A stretch of DNA of 64,000 bases, taken from the NCBI RefSeq assembly GCF_056712565.1, contig NZ_CM160072.1; one strand, given 5' to 3'. The position numbers were made by a program, and so were the translations under genes. The notes under the pieces are model-generated. The model was not told the DNA's origin. It ran no database searches and saw nothing but the letters and a program-made list of their open reading frames with translations. Positions 1 through 33,522 of the stretch are shown piece after piece. The stretch's first letter is position 1; each line of letters begins with the position of its first letter.

Positions 1-736
1 CTTCGTAAAGCTCTTTACTGATAGGGATGCTTCTGTTTTTCTTCCCCTTCGTTCTGACAAAGGTAATTCGGTATTTGGTCACCTGTGAGCGGGTAAGATT
101 TACGGCTTCACGCCAGCGTGCGCCTGTGCTTAAGCATATCTTAACTACCAGTGCCAGAATTGGGTCCTGACGTTTGCAATCAGCCAGCAATTCAACAATC
201 TGCTCATGGGTAAGCCATGCCATCTCTTTTTCTGCGATGGTGAATTTTCGCATGTTCTCCAGTGGGTTCGGATACGACCATTCGCCCAGACGGGATAGTT
301 CGCTAAAAACACTACTTAGATAGCTTTGCTCCAGGTTAATGGTGACCGGGCTTGCTCCTTTCTTCCATTTCTCGCTGAAGTAGATCTCGCCTGTCAGGCG
401 TTTATCTCGATAATGGGCAAACATTTTAGAGGTGAGATCGGTTGCAAGAGGATTGCCCAGAGCGTCAACCATCAACAGCAATTTGTCATAGACATGCTGC
501 CCAGCTGTCAGAGATTTACCATGTAGTTTGAACCATAGCTCAACCACGTCTTTCAGTGTTCGACGATCCACTGATTCACCCAGCCAGGGCTTTGCTTCGG
601 TTTCTTCCATCGTGTGGCGCTCAAAAGCCAGTGCTTCGCCTTTGGTGGCGAATTGTTTACGCACACGACGCCCACTTCGTCCGGCGGGGTAACATTCGCA
701 AAGCCATTTCCCAGTGGTGAGTTTTCGTACTGCCAT
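1..736 (-). CDS. int: Phage integrase (tyrosine recombinase, P2 family); 3' end of gene lies beyond window start
   Basis: Reverse-strand reading from ATG at 736: MAVRKLTTGKWLCECYPAGRSGRRVRKQF...; ORF runs off position 1; position next to the immunity region. Confidence 0.85.
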   Translation of the reverse strand, partial: MAVRKLTTGKWLCECYPAGRSGRRVRKQFATKGEALAFERHTMEETEAKPWLGESVDRRTLKDVVELWFKLHGKSLTAGQHVYDKLLLMVDALGNPLATDLTSKMFAHYRDKRLTGEIYFSEKWKKGASPVTINLEQSYLSSVFSELSRLGEWSYPNPLENMRKFTIAEKEMAWLTHEQIVELLADCKRQDPILALVVKICLSTGARWREAVNLTRSQVTKYRITFVRTKGKKNRSIPISKELYE

Positions 737-924
737 AAAAAATGCCCTCCAGTAGAGAGCATTTTTACTGTATGTATAACCAGTGTCAATGTATGAAATC
801 CTACGACCATACATCTCACTGAAGCCATAATGAAGTTGGCTATTCTTTTTGCTATGTGAGCATGTAACTTTTGCGGTTAACCTGCGGCTCATTTTTATTT
901 TAGACGCAGATATAAAAGCAAAAG

Positions 925-1116
925 TTATCGTGAGTTTTTAGTACAGATTTTTTTGGATTTACTAATAGTTCCATCATTGCAAACAAATTTTCCATCGGAG
1001 GTACAGTGAGAGACACCTCCCTTTTTCCCAGAACAAGGATAATTTTTAGCATAGGTAGTTAGTGGGCTTAATAACAAAGAGCATGATAAAACCACAAAAA
1101 ATACTTTACCAAGCAT
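925..1116 (-). CDS. Small secreted Cys-rich protein (63 aa), hypothetical
   Basis: ORF-track protein with N-terminal hydrophobic signal-like segment and six cysteines; AT-rich DNA between int and cI. Confidence 0.4.
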
Positions 1117-1131
1117 AGTTTCCTCCCGGTA

Positions 1132-1701
1132 TTATCTAACATATTTAACTGTTAAACTTATAATTTTACCAATTATTTCAATGTCTTCTATCTTACATTC
1201 GAAGGCTCTGTTTCCACCCTCGACGAAGATTCTTCCACCGGGTAAACGAGTAATGTCACGGATCGTTACTTCGCCATCAATACTTATTACCCATTTACCA
1301 TCACGTATGTCATCAAATTCTTTATCACAAATAAATTCAGAATTGTTATCTGTGATGACAAAAGGTTTTTTAAACGTAGAGGGTAGAAATCCCTTATCAA
1401 AAATATAAAAACCGTCTTCACGCAAGGCACCATCAGATAATACATATTTAGCAACTTCCATAGTATTTGTATTACCTGAAGTTTGCTTTGAACCATGTCC
1501 GGTTGTGAGCCAATTAAGCGAGGTGCCCGTTTCAAGGGCGCACTGGATTACCCATTCTGCTGGGAATGAGTCACGCATGTAGCGTGTGGCGAGTGTACTT
1601 TTAGAGATTCCTAAATGATCGCACAACGCCTGTCGAGTCTTGAATCCATAAGCTTCTACCATGCGCTCTATGGCGCCTCGTCCGCCTTTCTCCAAATTCA
1701 T
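1132..1701 (-). CDS. cI: CI-type immunity repressor (HTH DNA-binding); start placed at internal ATG 1701 (track ORF extends to 1806)
   Basis: HTH-like segment QALCDHLGISKSTLATRYM; divergent to apl/cII as in phage 186; choosing ATG 1701 leaves a 125-bp switch region. Confidence 0.65.
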   Translation of the reverse strand: MNLEKGGRGAIERMVEAYGFKTRQALCDHLGISKSTLATRYMRDSFPAEWVIQCALETGTSLNWLTTGHGSKQTSGNTNTMEVAKYVLSDGALREDGFYIFDKGFLPSTFKKPFVITDNNSEFICDKEFDDIRDGKWVISIDGEVTIRDITRLPGGRIFVEGGNRAFECKIEDIEIIGKIISLTVKYVR

Positions 1702-1826
1702 GGTCACTCCAAGTGAACTTTTATCTTGACGATTTCGCCGTGCGATCGTATGTTTATGGTGTTCACAAAATACAAACGATCCGTATTCGTCCTGATTAAT
1801 CATCATTAAACGAGGAATGTTGCATC
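1702..1826. promoter_or_regulatory. Putative divergent early promoter/operator (lysis-lysogeny switch) region
   Basis: Intergenic between divergent cI and apl; contains inverted repeat AGTGAAC ... GTTCACA and TTGACG / TATGTT promoter-like hexamers. Confidence 0.35.
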
Positions 1827-33287: not shown

Positions 33288-33365
33288 CGCTGCCGCCATT
33301 TTGTCGCCATCGTTAAAAAACAGTGCTTCTAACATCATGATTTTAAACATCTTAAATTTCAGGCA

Positions 33366-33410
33366 ACAAAAAACCCATCAACCTTGAACCGAAATGGCGG
33401 GGTTGATGGG
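33366..33410 (-). terminator. Hairpin with T-tract on minus strand; ybjL terminator and/or part of the prophage-host junction
   Basis: CCCATCAACC ... GGTTGATGGG inverted repeat, A-run on plus-strand 5' side. Confidence 0.4.
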
Positions 33411-33522
33411 CTCCACAAAATGGGGACATCAAAGAAAAGCAGTGGCACTAATTAAGACTGATGCCCTGCGGAAAAGTTCTGCGGTTGTGCAAAAAAATTT
33501 CATTTTCAGGGCAACTTCAGTT

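What the first reader, a model, noticed from the sequence alone, without database searches (positions are those of the whole stretch)
925..1116. Small Cys-rich secreted protein gene between int and cI
63-aa ORF with signal-like N-terminus and six cysteines in an AT-rich gap next to the immunity region; this position often hosts morons in temperate phages. Could be a small exported peptide or toxin-like factor, but could also be non-coding.
Basis: inference. Interest (0 to 1): 0.25.

Follow-up and report, generated by a model that had tools for sequence, protein, structure and literature searches.

The report
Prophage YdcA-family small periplasmic protein gene
The 63-codon reading frame is a real, strongly conserved gene for a tiny exported, disulfide-bonded protein of the already catalogued YdcA family, carried just behind the repressor gene of a 186/P2-like E. 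coli prophage; what it does is unknown, but fusions to secreted nucleases suggest it binds DNA in the cell envelope.

Summary
The ORF is there: window 925-1116, minus strand, 63 aa. It has a GGAGG ribosome-binding site and starts 15 nt after the cI stop codon. It has five cysteines, not six: one in the signal peptide and four in the mature part.

It is a real gene. It passes NCBIfam NF007463 above the curated cutoff and matches PHROG 6000 and Pfam PF27300 (YdcA). RefSeq already names the identical protein "YdcA family protein". dN/dS among alleles is 0.02-0.14. All 80 viral-contig copies examined are intact, and 19 of 22 variable sites fall at third codon positions.

The order cI, ydcA-like gene, variable cargo, int recurs in E. 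coli, Klebsiella, Yersinia and Hafnia prophages and in Haemophilus phage HP2, where the gene is unannotated.

The predicted product is a Sec-exported, 40-residue, 4.3 kDa, basic peptide with two disulfides. Its function is unknown.

- The domain resembles the two lobes of Legionella Dot/Icm Dis2.
- It is fused to, or encoded next to, secreted nucleases of three different folds.

From these I infer that it binds DNA or another polyanion in the periplasm, possibly to exclude incoming DNA. This is an inference only. As an object it is ordinary; as an unsolved family it is moderately interesting.

The parts
925..1116 (-). ydcA-like gene: 63-aa precursor, stop codon included in the coordinates. Identical to RefSeq WP_000900884.1, 'YdcA family protein'.
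   Evidence: ORF list and translation. NCBIfam NF007463 at 115 bits against a cutoff of 93. PHROG 6000 at E 9e-34. PGAP annotation. dN/dS 0.02-0.14.
1048..1116 (-). Predicted Sec signal peptide, residues 1-23 ([23 protein letters not shown]). Inferred cleavage after Ala23.
   Evidence: Ala at -1 is invariant and -3 is S/A/T/V in 29 homologues. The region diverges freely in sequence but stays hydrophobic. No signal-peptide predictor was available; this is rule-based inference.
928..1047 (-). Predicted mature peptide, residues 24-63: 40 aa, 4.26 kDa, pI 9.6, four invariant Cys. The YdcA domain [12 protein letters not shown]...[15 protein letters not shown] lies within it.
   Evidence: Invariant P, C, S, G, C, C, S, S, C columns in 66-111 diverse domains. 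AF2 pLDDT is 85 for the domain. Compared with a divergent E. coli allele there are 21 synonymous and 2 non-synonymous differences.
1117..1131 (-). 15-nt cI-ydcA spacer carrying the ribosome-binding site (GGGAGGAAACT before the ATG).
   Evidence: Sequence read directly. No minus-strand terminator-like site was found between cI and the ORF.
1132..1701 (-). cI repressor gene (189 aa by the RefSeq start; the longest ORF extends to 1806). Upstream partner in the same transcription direction.
   Evidence: Pfam Phage_CI_repr at 8e-34 and Phage_CI_C at 8e-29. PGAP coordinates mapped from L001.
737..924 (-). 188-bp AT-rich spacer between the ydcA-like gene and int. This is the site where relatives carry extra cargo (KAP NTPase or an unknown 347-aa protein). 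It contains a minus-strand promoter-like site at 789-761 and a plus-strand terminator-like hairpin at 871-887.
1..736 (-). 5' part of the prophage integrase gene; it runs off the window start.
   Evidence: Pfam Int_N at 2e-32 plus Phage_integrase. PGAP annotates it as 'phage integrase'.

Best explanation
**What it is.** The ORF is a functional gene of the YdcA family (Pfam PF27300, NCBIfam NF007463). It lies in the lysogeny operon of a 186/P2-like prophage integrated between rcdA and rybB.

**Shown here**
- It is protein-coding and under strong purifying selection on the mature domain.
- It lies immediately downstream of cI, in the same orientation, in several genera.

**Inferred steps**
1. 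It is transcribed with cI in lysogens.
2. The precursor is exported by Sec and cleaved after Ala23.
3. The 40-residue basic peptide is locked by two disulfides in the periplasm.
4. The domain is a small binding module for a polyanion, most likely DNA. The reasons: the same domain is fused N-terminally to secreted nucleases of three unrelated folds, it is encoded 10 nt upstream of a secreted SNase in Legionella, and five basic positions are conserved.
5. In the lysogen it therefore acts in the envelope as a lysogenic-conversion factor. My preferred role is interception or exclusion of incoming foreign DNA (phage, conjugative or transforming). The alternative is an envelope or acid-stress fitness role like that hinted at for chromosomal ydcA.

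**My probabilities**
- Real YdcA-family gene: about 0.97.
- Exported and disulfide-bonded: about 0.85.
- Co-expressed with cI: about 0.75.
- Binds DNA or a polyanion: about 0.4.
- Acts in DNA exclusion: about 0.25.
For: **Family membership**
-, plus PF27300:YdcA.

**Selection**
- 10-11 synonymous against 1-3 non-synonymous differences among E. coli alleles.
- In the mature domain, 21 synonymous against 2 non-synonymous differences versus strain S21.
- 80 of 80 IMG/VR copies are intact; variable sites by codon position are 1/2/19.

**Prevalence**
- At least 80% of the ORF is present in 627 of 5426 complete E. coli genomes, including BL21.
- 483 IMG/VR contigs encode a relative.

**Synteny**
- The order cI, ydcA, (cargo), int is found in E. 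coli, Klebsiella, Yersinia and Hafnia.
- In Haemophilus phage HP2 the ORF start overlaps the cI stop.

**Export**
- Ala at -1 is invariant and the hydrophobic leader is variable.

**Nuclease link**
- YdcA+Endonuclease_NS (P0200, P0150, P0207), YdcA+SNase (P0126, inside a P2-like phage) and YdcA+PLDc_2 (P0224).
- L. pneumophila has separate ydcA and SNase genes 10 nt apart; that SNase is 47% identical to the fused one.
- The HP2 neighbour orf1 is a secreted OB-fold (tRNA_anti-like) protein.

**Charge**
- Basic columns are conserved and the mean net charge is +4.2 per 36-residue domain.
Against: - There is no direct expression, localisation or binding evidence for this gene or for any family member.
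- Most family members are stand-alone. Nuclease fusions were seen in 5 of the 20 multi-domain proteins scanned (a sixth, P0134, by eye only), out of 478 family clusters of which only 150 were listed.
- The fusions equally fit an anchoring or localising module rather than a DNA binder. The only structurally characterised relative, Dis2, binds lipoproteins DotC, DotD and DotK rather than DNA, and one fusion is to a T6SS VasL domain.
- The only reported ydcA deletion phenotype found is organic-acid (3-HP) sensitivity; transcript studies link ydcA to acid pH and persister formation. None of this concerns DNA.
- The protein is absent from PADLOC defence models.
- No minus-strand promoter or terminator mapping was possible. 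Co-transcription with cI is inferred from spacing and from my knowledge of phage 186 pL.
Confidence: 0.5

Rival explanations
1. It is an envelope or acid-stress fitness factor. The prophage copy does what chromosomal ydcA is hinted to do, protecting the host envelope under acid or organic-acid stress, and benefits the lysogen rather than excluding DNA.
For: An E. coli W ydcA deletion is sensitive to 300 mM 3-hydroxypropionate, and that paper cites up-regulation of ydcA at pH 5 under YdcI control. ydcA transcript rises during persister formation and in a pnp mutant. The mature domain is 72% identical to chromosomal YdcA.
Against: The phenotypes come from a single study with no mechanism. They do not explain the recurrent nuclease fusions and adjacency, nor the tight linkage to cI across genera.
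Confidence: 0.25
2. It is a docking or adaptor module for outer-membrane-proximal protein machines, as Dis2 is in the Dot/Icm T4SS. It binds envelope lipoproteins or secretion, pilus or conjugation machinery, and thereby modulates them or blocks a receptor.
For: Evidence for homology to the Dis2 lobes: Dis2 homologues hit only the YdcA NCBIfam models, with both lobes matching. One of them carries PF27300. hhalign gives 84% probability. Dis2 (7muc_AN) is the top Foldseek PDB hit, with probability 0.97 and 39% identity. Dis2 contacts DotC, DotD and DotK near the outer membrane. There is one fusion to a T6SS VasL domain. Homologues occur on small mobilisable plasmids.
Confidence: 0.15
3. It is a secreted toxin, bacteriocin or defensin-like antimicrobial peptide.
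For: It is small, cationic (+7) and disulfide-stabilised, features it shares with defensin-type peptides.
Against: It has a Sec-type leader, which would deliver it only to the producer's own periplasm. There is no adjacent immunity or export gene and no toxin or bacteriocin family match. Chromosomal copies are widespread as single genes.
Confidence: 0.05
4. It is a chance ORF in a non-coding, AT-rich spacer.
For: It is short, AT-rich and in an intergenic-looking position. Older PGAP versions call it only 'hypothetical protein'.
Against: It matches curated models at E about 1e-33. dN/dS is 0.02-0.14. Substitutions are biased to third codon positions, 19 of 22. The peptide is conserved despite saturated synonymous sites. 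It has a strong Shine-Dalgarno sequence.
Confidence: 0.02

Closest known systems
E. coli K-12 YdcA (b1419) and the YdcA family (Pfam PF27300; NCBIfam NF007462, NF007463, NF007464 = PRK10040)
   Same: It has the same architecture: a Sec leader followed by a domain of about 35 residues of the form PCSG-K-GG-[VI]-x-H-C ... F-V-C-N-D-G-x-x-S-x-S-K-K-x-C with four invariant Cys. It scores above the curated cutoff of NF007463. The mature domain is 72% identical to K-12-type YdcA.
   Different: It is prophage-borne and linked to cI rather than lying at the chromosomal cybB-ydcA-hokB locus. It has a different leader and a short basic C-terminal tail (TKNSR). It belongs to the NF007463 subgroup, not the NF007462 subgroup of K-12 YdcA (68 bits against a cutoff of 118). 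The function of the family is unknown.
Legionella pneumophila Dis2 (Lpg0823; PDB 7MUC, 7MUD), an accessory subunit of the Dot/Icm T4SS outer-membrane cap
   Same: Each of the two Dis2 lobes carries the motif C-[CS]-x-x-x-G-G-[VI]...G-x-x-V-C-N-[DN]-G-x-x-S...C with disulfide pinning. The sequence matches are reciprocal and Dis2 is the top Foldseek hit. Both have an N-terminal hydrophobic leader and an envelope location.
   Different: Dis2 has two lobes and five disulfides. It is not basic, and it is a structural subunit bound to DotC, DotD and DotK. Homology is probable but only marginally significant once the leader is removed. The papers read here call Dis2 Legionella-specific and do not mention YdcA.
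Lysogen-expressed cargo genes transcribed with the repressor, for example lambda rexAB downstream of cI, and periplasmic exclusion proteins such as T4 Spackle. These comparisons come from my own knowledge.
   Same: The position immediately downstream of the repressor in the lysogenic transcript matches rexAB. Small size and periplasmic location match Sp.
   Different: There is no sequence or fold relationship, and no exclusion phenotype has been tested. This is an analogy only.
Accessory DNA-binding modules of secreted or periplasmic nucleases
   Same: The YdcA domain occupies the N-terminal accessory position in Endonuclease_NS, SNase and PLD-like nucleases.
   Different: DNA binding by the YdcA domain has never been demonstrated. 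Here it stands alone, with no nuclease in the prophage interval.

Membership tests
YdcA family (NCBIfam NF007463 / Pfam PF27300) | Scores above the curated whole-protein cutoff of the family HMM. | tested here: met
   NF007463 gives 115.3 bits against a cutoff of 93, E 7.7e-34, covering residues 5-63. PF27300 is precomputed on the cluster representative P0001 and is named 'YdcA'. The local Pfam copy lacks PF27300, so that model was not run directly.
YdcA family (NCBIfam NF007463 / Pfam PF27300) | Four invariant cysteines plus the PCS...GG...FxC.DG..S.SKK.C motif. | tested here: met
   All invariant columns of the 66- and 111-sequence alignments are present in the window protein.
YdcA family (NCBIfam NF007463 / Pfam PF27300) | N-terminal cleavable signal peptide and periplasmic location. 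| tested here: inconclusive
   Sequence rules are satisfied: n-, h- and c-regions are present, Ala at -1 is invariant and -3 is a small residue. No predictor or experiment was available. K-12 YdcA is described only as 'predicted periplasmic'.
Dis2-like disulfide-pinned lobe (Legionella Dot/Icm Dis2) | Significant sequence or profile similarity to the Dis2 lobes. | tested here: inconclusive
   The full-length profile gives E 1e-5, but this includes the leader. The mature-only profile gives E 0.054. In the reverse direction, Dis2 homologues hit only YdcA models at E 2e-4 to 1e-3. hhalign gives 84% probability.
Dis2-like disulfide-pinned lobe (Legionella Dot/Icm Dis2) | The same three-dimensional fold. 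| tested here: inconclusive
   [not shown]
Dis2-like disulfide-pinned lobe (Legionella Dot/Icm Dis2) | It is a subunit of a type IVB secretion system outer-membrane cap. | tested here: not met
   The gene lies in a prophage lysogeny operon with no T4SS genes nearby. It is therefore not filed as a Dis2 orthologue.
Bacterial lipoprotein | A lipobox with a conserved Cys at +1 of the mature protein. | tested here: not met
   C12 (in VLSC) lies only 12 residues from the N-terminus and is not conserved in homologues, many of which have no Cys in the leader.
Known anti-phage defence proteins (PADLOC-DB 2.0) | A match to a defence-system protein model. | tested here: not met
   The ORF has no PADLOC hit. 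In contrast, the KAP NTPase that occupies the neighbouring slot in relatives matches PDC-S20 at E 1e-171.

The most novel reading that the evidence does not exclude
The YdcA domain is a previously unrecognised periplasmic or extracellular DNA-binding mini-domain: about 35 residues, two disulfides and a conserved basic face. Mobile elements use it in three ways:
- as a substrate-binding module on secreted nucleases;
- as a stand-alone protein, co-expressed with the prophage repressor, that intercepts foreign DNA crossing the envelope (superinfecting phage, conjugative or transforming DNA);
- in a derived, non-basic, duplicated form as the Dis2 subunit of the Legionella Dot/Icm machine, which the papers read here treat as Legionella-specific.

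The phage-borne copies found in the phage-record search all come from Haemophilus, Moraxella, Acinetobacter and Pseudomonas phages. The first three hosts are naturally competent (from my own knowledge), which would fit an anti-DNA-uptake role.
Probability: 0.2. Interest if true: 0.7.

Novelty: already known. Interest (0 to 1): 0.3.

Why it matters
As an object the gene is ordinary. RefSeq already lists the identical protein as a YdcA family protein, and curated HMMs exist for the family.

It matters in three modest ways:
- YdcA is a very widespread family with no assigned function: 478 clusters at 50% identity, about 12% of complete E. coli genomes for this prophage allele alone, and 483 IMG/VR viral contigs. 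Its mature peptide is almost frozen in sequence.
- Its fixed place directly behind cI, in prophages of Enterobacterales and in Haemophilus phage HP2, implies a product made in every lysogen. That makes it a candidate lysogenic-conversion or exclusion factor.
- The nuclease fusions and adjacency, and the Dis2 resemblance found here, give the first concrete and cheaply testable hypotheses for the family. They also suggest that Dis2 is not Legionella-specific in origin.

It also shows that intact copies are missing from the annotation of well-studied phages such as HP2 and S2.

Tried and rejected
- **Local Pfam scan of the ORF.** Only a sub-threshold hit, because PF27300 is not in the local copy.
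- **PDB sequence search with the mature-only profile.** Dis2 fell to E 0.054, level with spurious LDL-receptor and lysozyme hits, so the earlier E 1e-5 was partly driven by the leader.
- **P0086 as a possible bridge between YdcA and Dis2.** It does not hit Dis2.
- **Search for a conserved downstream partner.** The neighbours in plasmids pGFJ6 and pA40P1, phage Mcat17, HP2 and the Acinetobacter phage are mostly unrelated envelope proteins. I rejected the idea of an obligatory two-gene system.
- **PADLOC.** No defence-model hit for the ORF.
- **Rfam over the whole window.** Nothing in or near the ORF; the only hit is RybB at 33365-33443.
- **Promoter and terminator scan.** No more sites than in shuffled sequence, and no minus-strand terminator flanking the ORF.
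- **IMG/VR scan.** The 80 loci returned were all 97-100% identical. They were useful for the population test but not for sampling diverse contexts.
- **Literature searches** for YdcA family, PRK10040, PF27300 and the WP accession. No functional study was found.
- **The 'conjugal transfer protein' label in UniRef.** I treated it as an unverified label. The gonococcal genetic island and other plasmid papers listed were not opened; I assumed their 'ydcA' names are positional rather than homologous.
- **The overlapping 50-aa ORF at 900-1052 (minus strand, other frame).** Dismissed as spurious, because substitutions follow the 63-aa frame.

Full report
**1. The observation**

Window 925-1116 holds a 63-codon ATG ORF on the minus strand. 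Its translation is [63 protein letters not shown].
- It lies between the 5' end of a tyrosine integrase gene (ATG at 736, minus strand; Int_N at 2e-32) and a 186-type CI repressor gene (1132-1701; Phage_CI_repr at 8e-34, Phage_CI_C at 8e-29).
- A GGGAGG ribosome-binding site precedes the ATG, and only 15 nt separate it from the cI stop codon.
- The ORF is 34% GC, against 51% for the window.
There are five: C12 in the leader, and C28, C38, C46 and C58 in the mature part.

**2. It is a real gene of a catalogued family**

- The protein matches NCBIfam NF007463 (PRK10040.1-2) at 115 bits, above the curated cutoff of 93.
- It matches PHROG 6000 at E 9e-34.
- The identical sequence is RefSeq WP_000900884.1, which current PGAP names 'YdcA family protein'. 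The collection's precomputed Pfam label is PF27300 = YdcA.

The selection signal is strong:
- Among four E. coli alleles there are 10-11 synonymous against 1-3 non-synonymous differences, giving dN/dS of 0.02-0.14.
- Against the divergent allele of strain S21, the 32-codon core has 21 synonymous and 2 non-synonymous differences. The leader, in contrast, has diverged almost completely.
- In 80 IMG/VR copies the ORF is intact every time, and 19 of 22 variable sites are third codon positions.
- The 'non-coding' alternative is therefore refuted. The overlapping 50-aa ORF at 900-1052 is spurious.

**3. Context**

- The window begins inside a 186/P2-like prophage. The gene order is int, ydcA-like gene, cI, then divergently an apl/cox-like gene, cII, fil, a Dam methylase and a replication endonuclease.
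- Relatives show rcdA on the left flank, and RybB sRNA lies at 33365-33443.
- At least 80% of the ORF is present in 627 of 5426 complete E. coli genomes, including BL21. 483 IMG/VR contigs encode a relative.
- The order cI, ydcA, int recurs in Yersinia, Hafnia and Klebsiella prophages.
- The slot between ydcA and int is variable. It is empty here (a 188-bp spacer). In NC101, S21 and Klebsiella it holds a KAP-family NTPase that matches the PADLOC candidate PDC-S20 at 1e-171. In Hafnia it holds an unknown 347-aa protein.
- Haemophilus phages HP2 and S2, whose CI has the same two Pfam domains, carry an intact but unannotated homologue. Its ATG overlaps the cI stop codon.
- No minus-strand terminator-like site separates it from cI. 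From my own knowledge, cI and int of phage 186 share the lysogenic pL transcript. I infer expression in lysogens; this is not shown.

**4. The product**

- The leader has a short basic n-region and a 12-residue hydrophobic core. Ala at -1 is invariant and -3 is S/A/T/V across 29 homologues.
- The predicted mature peptide has 40 residues, a mass of 4.26 kDa and a pI of 9.6.
- Across 66-111 diverse domains the columns P, C, S, G, C, C, S, S, C are invariant. Five basic columns are 70-91% K/R, and the mean net charge is +4.2.
- AlphaFold gives a small beta-hairpin-containing knot, with pLDDT 85 for the domain.
- C12 is not conserved, so the protein is not a lipoprotein.

**5. Wider family**

- A full HMMER scan finds 478 clusters at 50% identity, 256 of them at E of 1e-10 or better. 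The word-indexed search finds 709 clusters at 90% identity.
- Members occur in Alpha-, Beta- and Gammaproteobacteria on chromosomes, including K-12 ydcA between cybB and hokB. They also occur on small mobilisable Acinetobacter and Psychrobacter plasmids, and in Moraxella, Acinetobacter, Haemophilus and Pseudomonas phages.
- No enterobacterial phage record in the 50,697-genome phage collection carries it.
- Tandem two- and three-domain proteins exist.

**6. What is known about function**

Very little is known.
- K-12 YdcA is described as a 57-aa predicted periplasmic protein of unknown function.
- A ydcA deletion in E. coli W is sensitive to 300 mM 3-hydroxypropionate, and that paper cites acid induction via YdcI.
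- The transcript rises during persister formation and in a pnp mutant.
- Searches for the family names found no functional study.

**7. Lead A: Dis2**

- A profile of the family hit one PDB protein at E 1e-5: chain AN of 7MUC and related entries. This is Legionella Dot/Icm Dis2 (Lpg0823).
- Part of that score came from the leader. A mature-only profile gives E 0.054, no better than LDL-receptor repeats.

Independent support for the link:
- Dis2 is the top Foldseek hit for the AF2 model, with probability 0.97 and 39% identity over 38 columns, but E 0.086.
- Two Dis2 homologues scanned against 18,950 NCBIfam models hit only the two YdcA models, with both lobes matching.
- One of those homologues carries PF27300.
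- hhalign gives 84% probability.

I consider homology probable but not proven. The prophage protein is not a Dis2 orthologue: it has a single lobe, is basic, and has no T4SS context.

**8. Lead B: nucleases**

- Of 20 longer family members scanned with Pfam, five carry the YdcA domain N-terminal to a nuclease domain of one of three unrelated folds.
  - Endonuclease_NS: P0200, P0150 and P0207.
  - SNase: P0126.
  - PLD-like: P0224.
  - A sixth, P0134, looks like a truncated Endonuclease_NS by eye only. The collection's own Pfam annotation of three of these genes (P0200, P0126, P0224) confirms the fusions.
- P0126 sits in a P2-like phage next to gpU and gpD homologues.
- In L. pneumophila a stand-alone ydcA gene lies 10 nt upstream of a secreted SNase gene. 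That SNase is 47% identical to the SNase part of P0126. This is a fused-versus-adjacent pair.
- Other fusions are to Lys/Ala-rich basic tails and to a T6SS VasL domain.
- In HP2 the next gene encodes a secreted OB-fold (tRNA_anti-like) protein.
- Together with the conserved basic face, the most economical reading is a polyanion-binding, probably DNA-binding, module that works outside the cytoplasm. An anchoring or localising module is the main alternative. It would reconcile the nuclease fusions with the protein contacts of Dis2.

**9. Best explanation and rivals**

Best explanation: a lysogen-expressed, Sec-exported, disulfide-bonded YdcA-family mini-protein. It acts in the periplasm by binding DNA or another polyanion, and plausibly limits entry of foreign DNA. 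My rough probabilities for each step are:
- Real YdcA-family gene: 0.97.
- Exported and disulfide-bonded: 0.85.
- Co-expressed with cI: 0.75.
- Binds DNA or a polyanion: 0.4.
- Acts in DNA exclusion: 0.25.

The rivals are:
- An acid or envelope fitness factor, like chromosomal ydcA: 0.25.
- A Dis2-like docking module for envelope machines: 0.15.
- A toxin or bacteriocin: 0.05. It has a Sec leader, no immunity or export partner, and no family hit.
- A chance ORF: 0.02.

**10. Novelty and score**

The gene and its family are already catalogued, so the finding itself is 'already known' and of low-to-moderate interest (0.3). The functional leads developed here are the nuclease association, the Dis2 resemblance and the cI-ydcA module that extends to Haemophilus phages. 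I did not find them in the literature I could search. They make an uncharacterised, very widespread family experimentally approachable. The most novel reading the evidence does not exclude is a new periplasmic DNA-binding mini-domain used by mobile elements for exclusion. I give it a probability of about 0.2.

Noticed in passing
window 33365-33443 (-): RybB sRNA (Rfam RF00110, 105 bits). In relatives rcdA flanks int on the other side, so the P2/186-like prophage appears to be integrated between rcdA and rybB and to occupy roughly the first 33 kb of the window.
   Followed up: partly
[not shown]
   Followed up: yes
L010 142-1473, L011 1656-2987, L018 5198-6529 (relatives of window 737-924): In related prophages a 443-aa KAP-family P-loop NTPase fills the gap between the ydcA-like gene and int. 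It matches the PADLOC candidate defence system PDC-S20 at E 1e-171. The window has only a 188-bp spacer there. The cI-int interval is therefore a defence or cargo hotspot.
   Followed up: partly
L108 1205-1952 (Legionella pneumophila contig); P0126 in L102 4001-4669; P0200; P0150; P0207; P0224: The YdcA domain is fused to, or encoded 10 nt upstream of, secreted nucleases of three different folds (Endonuclease_NS, SNase, PLD-like). One fusion sits in a P2-like phage next to gpU and gpD homologues.
   Followed up: yes
window 1132-1806 (-): The longest cI ORF is 224 aa, but RefSeq starts CI at the internal Met, giving 189 aa (1132-1701). The extra 105 nt would overlap the divergent promoter region before the apl/cox-like gene at 1827-2048, so the shorter start is more plausible.
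   Followed up: no
window 871-887 (+): A terminator-like hairpin with a T-run lies on the plus strand, inside the spacer between the ydcA-like gene and int. It is antisense to the lysogenic genes, and it is not a terminator for the minus-strand transcript.
   Followed up: no
L110-L112 3465-4213: In an unidentified proteobacterial chromosome, a YdcA gene lies 56 nt downstream of an XRE-type HTH protein with two transmembrane helices. This echoes the repressor-then-ydcA order seen in the prophages.
   Followed up: no
P0056, P0057, P0060, P0180 and similar (about 105-125 aa family members): A second Cys-rich C-terminal module (CxC...CTGPRGGxYC...GxKSY) follows the YdcA domain in many betaproteobacterial members (NCBIfam NF007464 type). 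Its relation to the first domain is unexplored.
   Followed up: no
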